Positions 872 to 1,992 of a stretch of 64,000 bases of DNA are shown one piece after another (positions within the stretch are counted from its first letter, which is position 1; every line of letters begins with the position of its first letter). Below the pieces are notes generated by a model. That model was not told the DNA's origin. It saw only the letters and a list, made by a program, of their open reading frames with translations, and did not search any database. This stretch comes from a virus (taxonomy: Duplodnaviria > Heunggongvirae > Uroviricota > Caudoviricetes), in IMG/VR virus record IMGVR_UViG_2778261164_000001, positions 20,803 through 84,802 of that record. The stretch is one strand, 5' to 3'. A program made the position numbers and the translations under genes.

Positions 872-947
872 GATGGTGTAGCTCAGCGGTTAGAGCGGTT
901 GACTGTTAATCAACGGGTCGATGGTTCAAATCCATCCACCATCGCCA
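872..947 (+). tRNA. tRNA-Asn (anticodon GUU)
   Basis: 76-nt cloverleaf read by eye: acceptor GATGGTG/CACCATC, anticodon loop CTGTTAA, T-arm GATGG-TTCAAAT-CCATC, discriminator G and encoded CCA. Confidence 0.9.
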
Positions 948-949
948 AT

Positions 950-1025
950 GCCGGTTTAGCTCAGTTGGTAGAGCGCCTGCCTTGTAAGCAGGATGTCAGC
1001 GGTTCGAGTCCGTTAATCGGCACCA
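950..1025 (+). tRNA. tRNA-Thr (anticodon UGU)
   Basis: 76-nt cloverleaf: acceptor GCCGGTT/AATCGGC, anticodon stem CCTGC/GCAGG with loop CTTGTAA, T-loop GGTTCGAGTCC, encoded CCA; only 2 nt after tRNA-Asn. Confidence 0.9.
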
Positions 1026-1642
1026 GCACAACAGGTAAGGGTATTTTGCGACGTCGGAGATCGCCGAGCTTGGCAGAGGGTTCGAATCCCTACGAAGTAC
1101 CCTTACCGTTGTGATGAATGCGCAGGCTGATGCGCGAAAGACATTGCAGCTATTGCGGAAAAGAGCTGTTCGGCGGGGCAATTAAACGCCCGTGAGAGTC
1201 TGAAATAACCGCAAGCCGGAGATCAGCACCGGTCATCACAACACAACAGGTAAGGGCATTCTCCCTTATGGGGCTTGGCTTAAATGCATCGAGTGCTCTT
1301 ACCGTTGTGATGAAGTGCAGCTCTTTGAAGCAACCAGAAGATAAGCATCTGGCTTCACAACATAAACCGCAGGAACGACCAATAAACGGTAGTCCGTATG
1401 GAGAACACCCCGTTGAGGAAGAGGCCTGGCCGGAACCGTAACCGGCACTACAACGTTGAGAACACTGGCGTAACGGGGTCATATCCCAATCTATGAATAA
1501 ATGTTGCGTTGCCGCGTGACAACCAGTGTTCTCAACATTGTGGTGAATGCACAGGCTGATGTGCCGCAACTACAGTAGTGCGCGCTTTGCGGGGCTTGCT
1601 ACAACCCTGTGTCGGAGTTCAGCACCGACCACCACAATCACT
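1026..1642 (+). repeat. array of degenerate tRNA-like and hairpin modules separated by a recurring spacer motif
   Basis: Motif ..TTACCRTTGYGRTGAAKGCRCAGGCTGATG.. recurs at about 1098, 1298 and 1530 (and 1830); long inverted repeats ACAGGTAAGGG..CCCTTACC and GTTGAGAACACTGG..CCAGTGTTCTCAAC; a GGTTCGAATCC T-loop-like box at 1078-1088. Confidence 0.5.
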
Positions 1643-1729
1643 GGAGAGTAGGGAGCATGGTGCTCAAGCGGTCTTGAAAACCGTCCCATAGCGCAAGCGA
1701 TGATGGTTCGATTCCATTACTCTCCGCCA
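1643..1729 (+). tRNA. type II (long variable arm) tRNA-like gene, anticodon loop CUUGAAA (UGA, tRNA-Ser-like); atypical D-arm, possibly a pseudo-tRNA
   Basis: Acceptor GGAGAGT/ACTCTCC, discriminator G and CCA; anticodon arm GCGGT-CTTGAAA-ACCGT closely resembles E. coli tRNA-Ser(UGA); T-arm GATGG-TTCGATT-CCATT. Confidence 0.45.
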
Positions 1730-1992
1730 GCGCAACGTTAAGAGTATTTGGCTAATTAAGCGAATGCCGGAAGCAGAACCGGATCAACAAATGCGTACAG
1801 GCGTCATCGCCGCCCAGCCAGCCAAGTGCTCTTACCATTGCGGTGAATGCGGCTAAGCGCACGCGGGGAAATGGTTATATCAGTCCATTCATTTCTCCTT
1901 GTTTCCCCGTCCACGGTGGATAACCAGCCAAAGGACACCGGGAGGCACCCGGCACCGCAGCTTTTTTATTCGTTAAATAATGGAGTGAGAGG

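What the first reader, a model, noticed from the sequence alone, without database searches (positions are those of the whole stretch)
872..1860. tRNA cluster extended by repeated structured spacer modules and an atypical tRNA-Ser-like element
Beyond clean tRNA-Asn and tRNA-Thr genes, the next roughly 800 bp hold repeated units sharing the motif TTACCRTTGYGRTGAAKGCRCAGGCTGATG, long perfect hairpins (for example GTTGAGAACACTGG ... CCAGTGTTCTCAAC) and a T-loop-like GGTTCGAATCC box. They are followed by an 87-nt type II tRNA-like element whose anticodon arm matches tRNA-Ser(UGA) but whose D-arm is irregular. I recall P1 having only tRNA-Asn, Thr and Ile, so these may be decaying duplicated tRNA genes, processing signals of a polycistronic tRNA transcript, or small structured RNAs.
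Basis: seen in the sequence. Interest (0 to 1): 0.5.

Follow-up and report, generated by a model that had tools for sequence, protein, structure and literature searches.

The report
Phage tRNA-shaped small-RNA cassette array
The "spacers" after the P1-type tRNA genes are tandem copies of a widespread, unannotated phage RNA cassette (a boundary hairpin plus a tRNA-shaped, pseudoknotted scaffold with a hypervariable insert), and the odd tRNA-Ser belongs to a known unusual phage tRNA lineage.

Summary
Window 588-1960 (+ strand, leader of the C1-repressed ban operon of a P1-like phage-plasmid) is an array of tRNAs and two kinds of repeated RNA module.

- **X:** a ~20-bp imperfect hairpin with a variable apex.
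- **Y:** a 7-bp closing stem stacked on a 5-bp T-like stem, plus a 5-bp D-like hairpin. The two loops (GGCUGA and AGAUCAGCA) are complementary. The centre is hypervariable (11-165 nt).

Y occurs in hundreds of unrelated phages. Its closing stem covaries with all four Watson-Crick pair types. A covariance model scores window Y1 at 76.6 bits and Y3 at 65.5 bits. Y4 scores 22.9 bits and is also a sub-threshold STnc100 match. Y2 is degenerate.

The Y1 allele is in 845 of 5426 complete E. coli genomes and is never annotated. In reference P1 the region is annotated as minus-strand ORFs plp and upl, which have no independent support.

The tRNA-Ser(UGA) is shared with P7, D6, Vequintavirus and others. 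It fits the published (8/4) phage tRNA-Ser class.

My best reading is inferred: these are co-transcribed, tRNA-style-processed small-RNA cassettes. They are not decaying tRNAs.

Just upstream lies an unannotated tmRNA-like tag template encoding ANDDLMMVAA.

The parts
588..668 (+). X0: boundary hairpin. 5' arm CACAACAGGTAAGGGCG, 3' arm GCGTCCTTTCCTGTTGCG. It follows the tmRNA-like tag module.
   Evidence: 5' arm motif scan. The 3' arm was read from the sequence.
851..868 (+). Class-2 T-like hairpin GCCGG-AGACGTAC-CCGGC, 3 nt upstream of tRNA-Asn.
   Evidence: Read from the sequence. A weak local hit of model R1 covers 850-867. The same hairpin type recurs in other phage loci.
872..947 (+). tRNA-Asn(GTT)
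   Evidence: ARAGORN. Rfam tRNA 74.5 bits.
950..1025 (+). tRNA-Thr(TGT)
   Evidence: ARAGORN. Rfam tRNA 72.9 bits.
1027..1113 (+). X1: boundary hairpin. Its apex carries a T-arm-like box (GGGTTCGAATCCC, 1077-1089).
   Evidence: Arm motifs at 1027-1043 and 1097-1113. Inverted repeat I7. Predicted in the minimum-energy fold.
1109..1241 (+). Y1: canonical tRNA-shaped element. Closing stem 1110-1116 / 1234-1240, D-like hairpin 1120-1135, T-like hairpin 1215-1233.
   Evidence: Model R1 76.6 bits, E = 1e-18. 96-98% identical copies occur in lambdoid phages. Present in 845 of 5426 E. coli genomes.
1242..1309 (+). X2: boundary hairpin.
   Evidence: Arm motifs at 1242-1258 and 1293-1309.
1306..1360 (+). 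Y2: degenerate, shortened Y element. It keeps a closing stem and the T-like hairpin CCAGA-AGATAAGCA-TCTGG.
   Evidence: Model R1 17.4 bits, E = 0.0016, over 1266-1360. Repeat family D3.
1361..1454 (+). Probable rearranged 3' half of a Y element. It holds the class-2 T-like hairpin GCCGG-AACCGTAA-CCGGC (1429-1446) followed by ACTACAAC.
   Evidence: Read from the sequence. This is inference, with no significant model hit.
1446..1545 (+). X3: boundary hairpin.
   Evidence: Inverted repeat I1, 23-nt arms, 91% complementary.
1538..1637 (+). Y3: canonical Y element. Its D-like stem is GCACA/TGTGC, a compensatory variant of GCGCA/TGCGC.
   Evidence: Model R1 65.5 bits, E = 8e-16. Present in P1 at 61.6 bits.
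1643..1729 (+). tRNA-Ser(UGA). Atypical fold: 8-bp acceptor plus 4-bp T stem is possible, the D arm is short, the variable arm is long, and G73 and CCA are encoded.
   Evidence: ARAGORN. Best Rfam match is tRNA-Sec at 42.9 bits, below the gathering score of 47. 338 phage records hold a homologue. Compensatory changes in acceptor and T stems.
1731..1845 (+). X4: boundary hairpin. 5' arm GCGCAACGTTAAGAGTATTTGGC, 3' arm GCCAAGTGCTCTTACCATTGCGGTG.
   Evidence: 3' arm motif at 1826-1842. Predicted in the minimum-energy fold.
1838..1960 (+). Y4: divergent Y element that is also STnc100-like. It is followed by a U-run at 1962-1967.
   Evidence: Model R1 22.9 bits, E = 6e-5. Rfam STnc100 37.8 bits over 1839-1959, below the gathering score of 47.
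406..585 (+). T module (outside the finding, same transcript): tmRNA-like tag template. Resume codon GCA at 468, frame ANDDLMMVAA, stop at 498-500.
   Evidence: Rfam tmRNA_permuted 26.1 bits, E = 0.011. Conserved in more than 119 phage loci with 15 tag variants.

Best explanation
The roughly 1 kb after trnT is neither junk nor decaying tRNA. It is an array of modular small-RNA cassettes, co-transcribed with the tRNAs from the C1-controlled ban promoter.

**The cassette.** Each cassette has two parts.
- **X** is a ~20-bp imperfect hairpin whose apex varies. It sits directly at the 5' boundary of the next RNA.
- **Y** is a tRNA-shaped scaffold. A 7-bp closing ('acceptor-like') stem runs straight into a 5-bp T-like stem, giving a 12-bp stack as in tRNA. 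A 3-nt AAU junction leads to a 5-bp D-like hairpin.
- The two hairpin loops (GGCUGA and AGAUCAGCA) can form a 5-bp loop-loop helix. This would mimic the D-loop/T-loop elbow of a tRNA.
- Where a tRNA has its anticodon arm, Y carries a hypervariable insert.

**Proposed mechanism (inferred).**
- The polycistronic transcript is cut up by the tRNA-maturation machinery. RNase P would cut at the 5' side of the Y closing stem, RNase III in the long X stems, and RNase E with exonucleases at the 3' ends.
- This would release stable Y RNAs whose variable insert is the functional part.
- That part may be a base-pairing region. The relatives STnc100 and PasD are Hfq-bound sRNAs with mapped targets.

**Evolution.** Cassettes are gained, lost and exchanged between phages by recombination at the conserved X/Y boundaries. 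This explains the mosaic differences among P1, P7, D6, RCS47 and this window.

**The tRNA-Ser(UGA).** It is a functional-looking member of a phage tRNA-Ser lineage with an 8/4-type fold. It was acquired as one more cassette.

**Shown:** existence, family membership, structure with covariation, strand, spread, and cassette mosaicism.
**Inferred:** processing enzymes, the loop-loop contact, stability, and any regulatory role.
For: **Family and structure.**
- BLAST finds the element in lambdoid phages, T1-like Klebsiella phages, Taipeivirus, N4-like Gamaleyavirus, ep3 and Erwinia phages.
- Among 141 unique copies selected only on their hairpins, the 7 closing-stem pairs are 91-99% paired. At several positions all four Watson-Crick types occur, for example GC 81, UA 23, AU 20, CG 11. 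There are 69 distinct 5' strands. Shifted controls pair at 33-43%, against 88% in register.
- On alignment A3, pairing is 99.2% against 86.2% for shuffles. The covariation score is 0.342 against 0.086 (0 of 500 shuffles reach it). Slid controls pair at 28-45%.
- The D-like stem shows compensatory variants: GCGUA/UACGC, GAGCA/UGCUC, GCGAA/UUCGC, GCACA/UGUGC and GCCCG/CGGGC.
- G·U outnumbers A·C by 56 to 11 in the helices. Model hits occur only on the + strand.

**Window copies.** Y1 scores 76.6 bits, Y3 65.5, Y4 22.9 and Y2 17.4. Y4 is also the sub-threshold STnc100 match.

**Co-transcription.**
- Of tRNAs within 600 nt of a Y element, 42 are on the same strand and 0 on the opposite strand.
- P1's annotation places Pban and its C1 operator at the end of dmt, with trnA, trnT, trnI and ban all downstream on the + strand.
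- The nucleotide just 5' of the closing stem is U in 74 of 141 copies.

**Cassette behaviour.**
- P1 lacks window 1119-1291.
- RCS47 has a different 145 nt in place of 1637-1821.
- Ro157c2YLVW lacks 1046-1238, has an extra tRNA-Tyr, and has a 162-nt insert.
- The Y1 allele is 96-98% identical in lambdoid phages. It is present in 845 of 5426 E. coli genomes.

**Relatives are real sRNAs.** PasD, which shares structure with STnc100, was found by Hfq RIL-seq and validated by northern blot. PasD and STnc100 are both described as interacting with distinct sets of targets (bioRxiv 10.64898/2026.05.13.724894).

**The minus-strand ORFs lack support.** Plp has no Pfam or PHROG family. Upl matches only unknown-function PHROGs. 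The 'Plp' C-terminus changes with cassette content.

**tRNA-Ser.** 338 phage records hold a homologue. Acceptor and T stems show compensatory changes. The (8/4) tRNA-Ser class is known in phages (PMC5389517).
Against: - I have no expression or processing data for these elements, in this window or in P1.
- The loop-loop helix never truly covaries. Both loops are nearly invariant, and only wobble-compatible C-to-U changes are seen. It is therefore inferred. The invariance could instead reflect binding to a conserved partner.
- There is no conserved 3' CCA. ACCA follows the closing stem in only 8 of 141 copies.
- Canonical Y elements do not match the STnc100 model, and a bona fide STnc100 copy (L008 3997-4211) is not hit by the Y model. 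The link to known sRNAs rests on the intermediate element Y4 and on shared architecture.
- In the minimum-energy fold of the whole region, the lower stem of X1 competes with the Y1 closing stem for GUUGUG.
- The samples were seeded with exact 20-mers, so they are biased towards conserved cores.
- CRISPRi knock-down of trnT, plp and upl in P1 gave no plaque defect (PMC10695390). Any function is therefore accessory.
- About 44% of Y copies sit directly upstream of an unrelated ORF. A cis-acting role is therefore not excluded.
Confidence: 0.5

Rival explanations
1. Pure punctuation. X and Y have no function of their own once released. They are cis-acting processing and stability signals: tRNA-like and RNase III-type cleavage sites. 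They separate the tRNAs and the downstream mRNAs of a long phage transcript, as in mitochondrial tRNA punctuation or the RNase III sites of T7.
For: - X always abuts the 5' end of the next RNA, whether Y or the T module.
- 47 of 108 Y copies are followed within 150 nt by an ORF with a ribosome-binding site, and those ORFs are unrelated to each other.
- Neighbouring tRNAs are strictly co-oriented with Y.
- The invariant cores fit recognition by conserved host enzymes.
Against: - A hypervariable 11-165-nt structured insert is unnecessary for a cleavage signal.
- Some copies are stand-alone units with their own terminator, and L006 has its own sigma-70 promoter.
- The relatives STnc100 and PasD are trans-acting, Hfq-bound sRNAs.
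Confidence: 0.2
2. The modules are parts of a disassembled or unconventional phage tmRNA-like system. The T module upstream supplies a tag template. Y is a tRNA-like domain, or the equivalent of the pseudoknot-rich 3' domain. X is the linker. The tandem X-Y units of P1-type phages would be duplicated 3' domains.
For: - T is followed by an X 5' arm at +110 to +125 in most of the listed loci. A canonical Y lies within 900 nt in 53 of 106 non-redundant loci, 87 of which extend at least 900 nt downstream.
- There are 15 tag variants. All are 10 codons, follow AN[DE]...[LMV][AM][AV]A, end in a stop, and lack a start codon. An in-frame UAG lies 8 codons upstream.
- The stop codon sits in the loop of a covarying helix-5-like hairpin.
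- A pseudoknot after the tag covaries, CCGA/UCGG changing to CCAG/CUGG.
- Y has the same domain order as a tmRNA tRNA-like domain: 5' strand, D analogue, insert, T arm, 3' strand.
Against: - ARAGORN finds no tmRNA in any locus.
- All Rfam tmRNA models stay below their gathering scores.
- No acceptor stem with G3·U70, no T-loop consensus and no CCA end was found near T.
- The Y closing stem has no G·U at position 3, and its 3' tail is not CCA.
- The tag lies outside Y, on its 5' side. That does not fit either the standard or the permuted tmRNA gene order.
- Most Y copies occur without a T module.
- The X apex and the Y centre vary independently, as L007 and L008 show.
Confidence: 0.12
3. One reading: the units are decaying duplicates of tRNA genes.
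For: - The apex of X1 has a good T-arm box at 1076-1091.
- Some Y centres and X apices in other phages contain T-arm-like boxes.
- A truncated 3' half of a tRNA follows Y in L006.
- Y2 and 1361-1454 look rearranged.
Against: - The Y cores are near-invariant across hundreds of unrelated phages, and the stems covary. That indicates purifying selection, not decay.
- Y and X do not match the tRNA model.
- Y lacks the D-loop and T-loop consensus sequences of tRNA.
Confidence: 0.04
4. The P1 reference annotation is right. The region encodes the minus-strand proteins Plp (a lipoprotein) and Upl, and the repeats are incidental.
For: - The ORFs exist. Window 1150-1569 (-) encodes 139 aa. P1 plp and upl are annotated.
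- Upl matches PHROG families.
Against: - Plp has no Pfam or PHROG hit, and the Upl PHROGs have no known function.
- P1's plp overlaps trnT.
- The ORF's C-terminal part depends on which cassette is present, and the upl frame is interrupted by the tRNA-Ser cassette.
- The D6 and Ro157c2YLVW records do not annotate plp or upl.
- The + strand folds far better than the - strand.
- The same DNA in other phages carries a hypervariable centre that cannot conserve a protein.
Confidence: 0.03
5. The conserved boundaries are DNA-level recombination sites, attC-like folded single strands or integrase core sites. They would mobilise tRNA and RNA cassettes, so the structure matters in DNA, not RNA.
For: - Cassette-like gain and loss occurs exactly at the repeated boundaries.
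- The elements are imperfect hairpins with extrahelical bases.
- The D-like and T-like hairpins are short inverted repeats with 6-9-bp spacers.
Against: - The loci examined share no linked recombinase: the flanking ORFs are unrelated, and the annotated neighbourhoods I looked at show none next to the element.
- The breakpoints fit simple homologous recombination between 17-40-nt direct repeats.
- The strand-specific excess of G·U, and strict co-orientation with tRNAs and genes, point to RNA.
- The attC R''/R' consensus (RYYYAAC / GTTRRRY) is not matched, judged by reading the sequence.
Confidence: 0.05

Closest known systems
STnc100 (Rfam RF02076) and PasD: prophage-encoded, Hfq-associated sRNAs of lambdoid prophages
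   Same: - They are phage-borne and intergenic.
- They share a closing stem (UGGUG...CACCA), followed by GAAU and a 5' hairpin, with a 3' hairpin (CCGGG-AGGCA-CCCGG) directly abutting the 3' strand of the closing stem.
- Window Y4 (1838-1960) matches both the STnc100 model (37.8 bits) and the Y model (22.9 bits).
   Different: - Canonical Y elements (Y1, Y3) do not hit STnc100 at all.
- A genuine STnc100 copy is not hit by the Y model.
- The invariant loops GGCUGA and AGAUCAGCA, and the hypervariable centre, are specific to Y.
- Y4 stays below STnc100's gathering score.
(8/4) tRNA-Ser / allo-tRNA group (Mukai et al. 2017, NAR, PMC5389517)
   Same: - The window's tRNA-Ser can form an 8-bp acceptor stem plus a 4-bp T stem.
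- It has a short D arm with a very small loop, a long variable arm and a Ser anticodon.
- It is phage-borne. The paper reports (8/4) tRNA-Ser in bacteriophages.
   Different: - The eighth acceptor pair (A8-U) is invariant, so 8/4 and 7/5 cannot be told apart by covariation.
- The D stem is 4-5 bp, not the long stem typical of tRNA-Sec.
- I did not check whether this exact lineage is in that paper's data set.
P1/P7 C4 antisense RNA and P4 CI RNA (Rfam C4, IsrK)
   Same: From my own knowledge: these are small phage RNAs cut out of longer transcripts by RNase P, because their closing helix mimics a tRNA acceptor stem. They have two hairpins with functional loops. P1-family phages encode them.
   Different: - No Rfam C4 or IsrK match lies in the window region.
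- The C4 loops pair with mRNA targets, whereas the Y loops are complementary to each other.
- Y carries a large variable insert.
tmRNA, including the TLD-only form of mycobacteriophage DS6A
   Same: - Y has the same domain order as a tmRNA tRNA-like domain, with a large insert in place of the anticodon arm.
- Y includes a pseudoknot-type contact.
- A tmRNA-like tag template (the T module) lies upstream in the same transcript.
   Different: - There is no G3·U70, no T-loop consensus and no CCA.
- The tag lies outside Y.
- No tmRNA detector accepts any part of the region.
Stable RNAs embedded in phage tRNA clusters (T4 species 1 and 2, also called RNA C and D), and engineered 'tRNA scaffold' RNAs
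   Same: From my own knowledge: non-tRNA stable RNAs are co-transcribed and co-processed with phage tRNAs, and a tRNA-like frame protects an inserted RNA from nucleases.
   Different: There is no sequence relationship. The Y scaffold replaces the D-loop/T-loop contact with Watson-Crick kissing loops, and it is spread across many phage families.

Membership tests
Y element (family defined here; model R1) | A 7-bp closing stem contiguous with a 5-bp T-like stem (GCCGG/CCGGC), and a GAAU junction | tested here: met
   Y1: 1110-1116 / 1234-1240 with the T-like hairpin at 1215-1233. Y3: 1539-1545 / 1630-1636. Model R1 scores 76.6 and 65.5 bits. Family-wide covariation is shown.
Y element (family defined here; model R1) | A D-like hairpin with loop GGCUGA and a T-like hairpin with loop AGAUCAGCA, the two loops being complementary | tested here: met
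   Y1 matches exactly. Y3 has GCACA-GGCUGA-UGUGC and UCGG-AGUUCAGCA-CCGA. Y2 and Y4 do not meet this feature, being degenerate and divergent. Whether the loops actually pair is not shown, because they do not covary.
STnc100 (RF02076) | Score at or above Rfam's gathering threshold of 47 bits | tested here: not met
   Y4 scores 37.8 bits and covers only model positions 31-147 of 206. Y1, Y2 and Y3 give no hit at E <= 10.
Canonical tRNA (RF00005) | Score at or above the gathering threshold of 29 bits | tested here: not met
   For the Ser element only. It is absent from the gathering-level scan. Its best match within the clan is tRNA-Sec at 42.9 bits, below that family's threshold of 47. ARAGORN does call it tRNA-Ser(tga).
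(8/4) tRNA-Ser / allo-tRNA group | A 12-bp acceptor branch split 8 + 4 | tested here: inconclusive
   GGAGAGUA/UACUCUCC (8 bp) plus AUGG/CCAU (4 bp) pair in all 8 homologues, with compensatory changes at pairs 5, 6 and T2. However, A8-U is invariant and a 7/5 reading with G·U is also possible.
(8/4) tRNA-Ser / allo-tRNA group | Long variable arm, Ser anticodon, small tRNA-Sec-like D arm | tested here: met
   The anticodon is UGA. About 17 nt lie between the anticodon stem and the T stem. The D stem is GAGC/GCUC with a 3-5-nt loop. The pairing I drew for the variable arm was not supported (45% paired).
(8/4) tRNA-Ser / allo-tRNA group | Charged with serine by SerRS and used in translation | not testable with these tools
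   G73 and CCA are encoded (read from the sequence). No biochemical data are available here.
tmRNA (for the upstream T module, and for Y as a possible tRNA-like domain) | A tag reading frame that resumes at GCA, with the stop codon in the loop of helix 5 | tested here: met
   Window 468-500 encodes ANDDLMMVAA followed by a stop. 15 variants occur across 106 non-redundant loci. The helix-5-like stem covaries.
tmRNA (for the upstream T module, and for Y as a possible tRNA-like domain) | An alanine-accepting tRNA-like domain: acceptor stem with G3·U70, T arm, and a 3' ACCA | tested here: not met
   ARAGORN -m finds none. A targeted search for a complementary 7-mer followed by NCCA and preceded by a T-loop finds none. 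The Y closing stem has no G·U at position 3.
C4 / IsrK antisense RNAs | Match to the Rfam C4 or IsrK models | tested here: not met
   There is no hit in window 200-3300 at E <= 10. Both models do detect true copies elsewhere, in L005.
Integron attC site | R''/R' core sites (RYYYAAC / GTTRRRY) and a linked integron integrase | tested here: not met
   The arms read CACAAC...GTTGTG, which does not fit the consensus (judged by reading the sequence). The annotated neighbourhoods I examined show no linked integrase next to the element, and the flanking ORFs are unrelated to each other.

The most novel reading that the evidence does not exclude
The whole non-coding leader (406-1960) could be a phage 'translation-hijack island' built around an unconventional, split tmRNA-like system. 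The T module would be a functional tag template that lacks its own tRNA-like domain. It is conserved in P1 and in more than 100 other phages, with ssrA-type 10-residue tags. The tRNA-shaped Y elements would supply, or derive from, the missing tRNA-like and pseudoknot domain. P1-type phages could then tag or rescue ribosomes in a way that no tmRNA detector recognises.
Probability: 0.1. Interest if true: 0.9.

Novelty: new variant of a known kind. Interest (0 to 1): 0.62.

Why it matters
- **Annotation.** A stretch of the P1 reference genome has been annotated for twenty years as two hypothetical minus-strand proteins. It appears instead to be an array of structured RNAs on the other strand.
- **Spread.** The same cassette sits unannotated in about one in six complete E. 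coli genomes and in many therapeutic-candidate phages, including T1-like and Taipeivirus Klebsiella phages and N4-like coliphages.
- **Design.** A natural tRNA-shaped scaffold carrying a hypervariable insert would be a new design principle for phage small RNAs. It would also give a ready family of testable candidates for host manipulation or anti-defence.
- **Links.** It ties the orphan sRNAs STnc100 and PasD to a much larger family.
- **The neighbouring tag template.** If functional, the tmRNA-like tag template would open a new question about trans-translation during phage infection.

Tried and rejected
1. **Hammerhead (CUGAUGA...GAAA) or box C/D k-turn (GUGAUGA...CUGA) readings of the Y 5' core.** Rejected. 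There is no room for hammerhead stem II. The 'C box' is fully Watson-Crick paired with the 3' strand. No Rfam ribozyme or snoRNA family hits.
2. **attC-like recombination sites.** The consensus is not matched and no integrase is linked.
3. **X apex pairing with the Y centre to hold two pieces together.** Rejected. L007 and L008 share the X apex but have unrelated Y centres.
4. **X as an alanine minihelix or as the acceptor stem of a permuted tmRNA.** Rejected. The 3:70 position is U·U or U-A. The 'CC' is paired with GG. No T arm lies upstream (and reading of the sequence).
5. **Search for a tRNA-like domain for the T module.** Only chance matches were found.
6. **A common protein gene downstream of Y.** The downstream ORFs are unrelated: a RecT-like protein, a DNA polymerase, and many small ORFs.
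7. **Literature searches.** I searched for a description of X, Y or the T module. I found only STnc100/PasD, phage tmRNAs of other kinds, and allo-tRNAs. The 2004 P1 genome paper is not held in the library.
8. **A wasted scan.** One viral-contig scan used a mis-written pattern and returned nothing. It was repeated correctly.
9. **A sigma-70 promoter inside the conserved GGTGTGATTAATAAT segment.** The spacing and the -35 box do not fit. The consensus scan finds no promoter in window 1-3600.

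
Full report
**Context.** The window is a P1-like (Punavirus) phage-plasmid. Its first 3.5 kb align with P1, RCS47, D6 and Ro157c2YLVW. In P1's annotation this is the leader of the ban operon. The elements, all on the + strand, run in this order:
- Pban and the C1 operator, at the end of dmt;
- a 'dicF-like' region;
- trnA and trnT;
- genes that differ between phages (tciABC in P1, an SPFH-domain gene here);
- trnI(CAT) and ban.

P1 additionally annotates two minus-strand ORFs, plp and upl, across the stretch under study.

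**Checking the observation.**
- ARAGORN finds tRNA-Asn 872-947, tRNA-Thr 950-1025, tRNA-Ser(tga) 1643-1729 and a CAT tRNA at 3065-3140.
- Rfam at gathering level accepts only the three canonical tRNAs. At relaxed threshold the Ser element scores best as tRNA-Sec (42.9 bits, below 47). Region 1839-1959 is a sub-threshold STnc100 match (37.8 bits, below 47).
It also recovers a second repeat (1211, 1330, 1607), a third (585, 1024, 1239), the T-loop-like box at 1076-1091, and the 23-nt inverted repeat 1446-1468 / 1523-1545.
- The + strand of 1023-1970 folds with z = -7.0, against z = -3.0 for the - strand.

**Anatomy.** Reading the repeats together shows two alternating modules.
- **X** is a long imperfect hairpin. 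Its 5' arm is CAACAGGTAAGRGYA... and its 3' arm is ...TRCYCTTWCCGTTG. One A is bulged and the apex varies (35-75 nt).
- **Y** starts where X ends.
  - A closing stem pairs TGTGRTG with CAYCACA.
  - An AAU junction follows.
  - A D-like hairpin follows: GCGCA-GGCUGA-UGCGC.
  - A variable centre follows.
  - A T-like hairpin follows: G-CCGG-AGAUCAGCA-CCGG-C. Its 3' strand runs straight into the 3' strand of the closing stem.
- The result is a 7 + 5 = 12-bp stack, as in a tRNA acceptor/T branch. The two loops can form the 5-bp helix GCUGA/UCAGC where a tRNA has its D-loop/T-loop contact.
- Window coordinates are X0 588-668, X1 1027-1113, Y1 1109-1241, X2 1242-1309, Y2 1306-1360 (degenerate), a rearranged remnant at 1361-1454, X3 1446-1545, Y3 1538-1637, tRNA-Ser 1643-1729, X4 1731-1845 and Y4 1838-1960.

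**The modules are not specific to P1.**
- BLAST of 1026-1250 finds the Y1 allele at 96-98% identity in lambdoid phages (mEp460, Stx2 phages, IME207).
- It finds the conserved junction in T1-like Klebsiella phages, Taipeivirus, N4-like Gamaleyavirus, HK633, ep3 and Erwinia phage phiEt88. The element usually lies in unannotated DNA or under tiny 'hypothetical' ORFs.
- In the set anchored on the 5' core, the 3' loop was free to vary yet kept UCAGC or CAGC. In the set anchored on the 3' core, the 5' loop kept GCUGA while the D-like stem varied by compensatory changes.
- Among 141 unique copies chosen only for intact hairpins, the seven closing-stem pairs are 91-99% paired. At several positions all four Watson-Crick types occur, and there are 69 different 5' strands. 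Out-of-register controls pair at 33-43%.
- On a MAFFT alignment of 36 full elements, the named structure is 99.2% paired (shuffles 86.2%). Ten pairs change on both sides. The covariation score is 0.342 against 0.086 (0 of 500 shuffles reach it). Slid controls pair at 28-45%. Those 36 elements were pre-filtered for a paired closing stem, so one search is the unbiased figure.
- The loop-loop helix is invariant, so it is neither supported nor contradicted by covariation.
- G·U outnumbers A·C by 56 to 11.
- The centre is 11-165 nt (median 73) and unalignable.

**Membership of the window copies.** A covariance model built from the non-window sequences (R1) gives these scores in window 1-4000:

| Element | Coordinates | Bits | E-value |
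|---|---|---|---|
| Y1 | 1109-1241 | 76.6 | 1e-18 |
| Y3 | 1538-1637 | 65.5 | 8e-16 |
| Y4 | 1838-1960 | 22.9 | 6e-5 |
| Y2 | 1266-1360 | 17.4 | 0.0016 |

Nothing significant lies on the minus strand. Y4 is the same stretch that partially matches STnc100. It is therefore an intermediate linking the Y family to that known prophage sRNA. P1 itself carries Y3 (61.6 bits) and Y4 (24.8 bits), and D6 carries two copies.

**Context and mobility.**
- Y is co-oriented with every nearby tRNA: 42 on the same strand and 0 on the opposite strand within 600 nt.
- Most copies have no same-strand tRNA in the fetched locus (103 of 126).
- 47 of 108 copies are followed within 150 nt by an ORF with a ribosome-binding site, and these ORFs are unrelated to each other.
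- Some copies have their own terminator, and L006 has a sigma-70 promoter.
- In mEp460 and an Stx2a phage, Y1 sits about 450 nt downstream of cI on the same strand.
- Among P1-like phages the array is mosaic, with breakpoints at the repeated boundaries.
  - P1 lacks window 1119-1291.
  - RCS47 has a different 145 nt in place of 1637-1821.
  - Ro157c2YLVW lacks 1046-1238, has an extra tRNA-Tyr, and has a 162-nt insert.
- The Y1 allele is present in 845 of 5426 complete E. coli genomes (715 chromosomal and 236 plasmid places). No feature is annotated over it in any of the 25 records listed.

**X hairpins.**
- X precedes both Y and the T module described below.
- Its middle stem is conserved in sequence (AAGAGCA/UGCUCUU).
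- Its upper stem covaries, for example UA 143, CG 36, UG 28, AU 16, GC 16 at one pair.
- Its lower stem covaries between contexts: CAAC/GUUG before Y, and CUAUC/GAUAG before T in L142.
- G·U outnumbers A·C by 622 to 242 in a noisy sample.
- I read X as a spacer or processing hairpin, but this is inference.

**The minus-strand ORFs.**
- The window's 139-aa ORF (1150-1569, -) and P1's Plp have no Pfam or PHROG family.
- Upl matches only PHROGs of unknown function.
- P1's plp overlaps trnT.
- The C-terminal part of 'Plp' changes with cassette content, and the tRNA-Ser cassette interrupts upl.
- CRISPRi of trnT, plp and upl has no effect on P1 plaque formation (PMC10695390).
- I regard plp and upl as probable mis-annotations.

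**The tRNA-Ser.**
- It is 98.9% identical in P7 (unannotated there) and 97.7% identical in D6.
- It is about 89% identical in Vequintavirus.
- It is 73-78% identical in T5-like and T4-like Klebsiella phages and in a Pseudomonas phage.
- In total 338 phage records hold a homologue.
- In an 8-sequence alignment, an 8-bp acceptor stem and a 4-bp T stem are 100% paired, with compensatory changes at three pairs. The eighth pair is invariant, so 8/4 and 7/5 cannot be told apart.
- Mukai et al. reported (8/4) tRNA-Ser in bacteriophages as part of the allo-tRNA group (PMC5389517).
- This is a known kind.

**Mechanism.** The shown facts are these:
- a conserved, strand-specific, covarying RNA architecture with the dimensions of a tRNA;
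- co-orientation and co-location with tRNAs in one operon leader;
- cassette-like exchange between phages;
- Hfq-bound sRNAs with mapped targets among the relatives, PasD and STnc100.

From these I infer that Y elements are released from the polycistronic transcript by tRNA-type processing and act through their variable insert. X would serve as the spacer. Precedent from my own knowledge is RNase P processing of P1 C4 RNA and P4 CI RNA. The main rival is that the modules are only punctuation signals.

**Side finding.** Weak tmRNA_permuted hits recur just upstream of X-Y units in unrelated phages.
- They mark a conserved module with a tmRNA-like resume context (AAAGWTAAAT-GCA) and a 10-codon tag. 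The window frame at 468-500 encodes ANDDLMMVAA.
- Across 106 non-redundant loci there are 15 variants. All follow AN[DE]...[LMV][AM][AV]A, end in a stop and lack a start codon.
- The stop codon lies in the loop of a covarying helix-5-like hairpin, and a covarying pseudoknot follows.
- No tRNA-like domain with alanine identity could be found.
- The P1-type module is present in 561 of 5426 E. coli genomes. In the listed records it carries either no feature or a 'hypothetical protein' CDS, and never an RNA annotation.
- Published catalogues of phage tmRNAs list standard, permuted and TLD-only forms, not this one (PMC4131195 and PMC11915505).
- Whether T, X and Y work together is open.

**Verdict.** The 'decaying tRNA' reading is rejected. 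The modules are members of a large, apparently undescribed family of tRNA-shaped phage RNA cassettes related to STnc100. The tRNA-Ser is a known unusual phage tRNA. Function is inferred, not shown.

Noticed in passing
window 406-585 (tag frame 468-500): An unannotated tmRNA-like tag template. A conserved 5' region (GTTTTCGTCA..GCGACTTTGCGG..TTTAGAAACTGACCA..AAAGTAAAT) is followed by GCA AAC GAT GAT CTG ATG ATG GTA GCG GCC TAA, encoding ANDDLMMVAA and a stop. The same module occurs in P1 itself, in D6, in RCS47 and in more than 119 viral contigs, with 15 tag variants. No tRNA-like domain was found, and ARAGORN does not call it.
   Followed up: partly
window 313-405: P1's annotated 'dicF-like region' ends in a strong intrinsic terminator (stem 376-398 followed by a run of eight T). 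It lies inside the ban operon leader, immediately before the tag module. Read-through or antitermination would be needed to transcribe the tRNA and RNA array from Pban.
   Followed up: no
window 1150-1569 (-) and 1570-1689 (-); P1 plp and upl: The minus-strand ORFs annotated in P1 and RCS47 as the lipoprotein Plp and as Upl overlap trnT and the RNA modules. They have no informative family match. Their ends change with cassette content. They are probably spurious.
   Followed up: yes
window 2210-3037 (+): This 275-aa lipoprotein-like gene is annotated 'putative serine protease' in RCS47 and Ro157c2YLVW. It is in fact an SPFH/Band 7 domain protein (Pfam E = 1e-30). It occupies the place of P1's tciABC. 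A 78-aa membrane-like ORF (1993-2229) precedes it.
   Followed up: partly
window 3065-3140: ARAGORN calls this tRNA 'Met(cat)'. It corresponds to P1 trnI, which P1 annotates as tRNA-Ile2 (CAT, ileX-like). Several related phage records label it tRNA-Met.
   Followed up: no
L006 2597-2614; window 1215-1232 and 1338-1356: The T-like hairpin of Y (GCCGGAGAUCAGCACCGG) aligns with positions 30-47 of the Rfam model for the E. coli sRNA RydB (GCCGGAGAUAAGCGCCGG). RydB may be a chromosomal relic of a Y element.
   Followed up: no
window 851-868 and 1429-1446; L008, L020, L024, L111, L142: A second recurrent hairpin type, (GAC)GCCGGA..CGTAACCGGC, is often preceded by GGTCGAAAGAC. It lies just upstream of X hairpins or tRNAs in several phages. 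It looks like a further module of the same non-coding islands.
   Followed up: no
AF503408.1 (phage P7) 72257-72343: The P7 reference record contains the same tRNA-Ser(UGA) at 98.9% identity, but it is not annotated there.
   Followed up: no
L006 (Klebsiella phage 6991), about 2650-2690: Directly after the Y element lies the 3' half of a tRNA(CAT): the 3' strand of the anticodon stem, the T arm, the acceptor 3' strand and ACCA. It has no 5' half. Its full-length counterpart is seen in L142. This is a truncated tRNA at a cassette junction.
   Followed up: partly
MG065652, MG065654, MG065672 and MG065690 ('Campylobacter phage' records): These records are 133-143 kb, apart from MG065652 at 58.8 kb. 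They carry a tRNA-Ser region that matches the query at the same identity as the Escherichia Vequintavirus records do. They may be mislabelled coliphage genomes.
   Followed up: no
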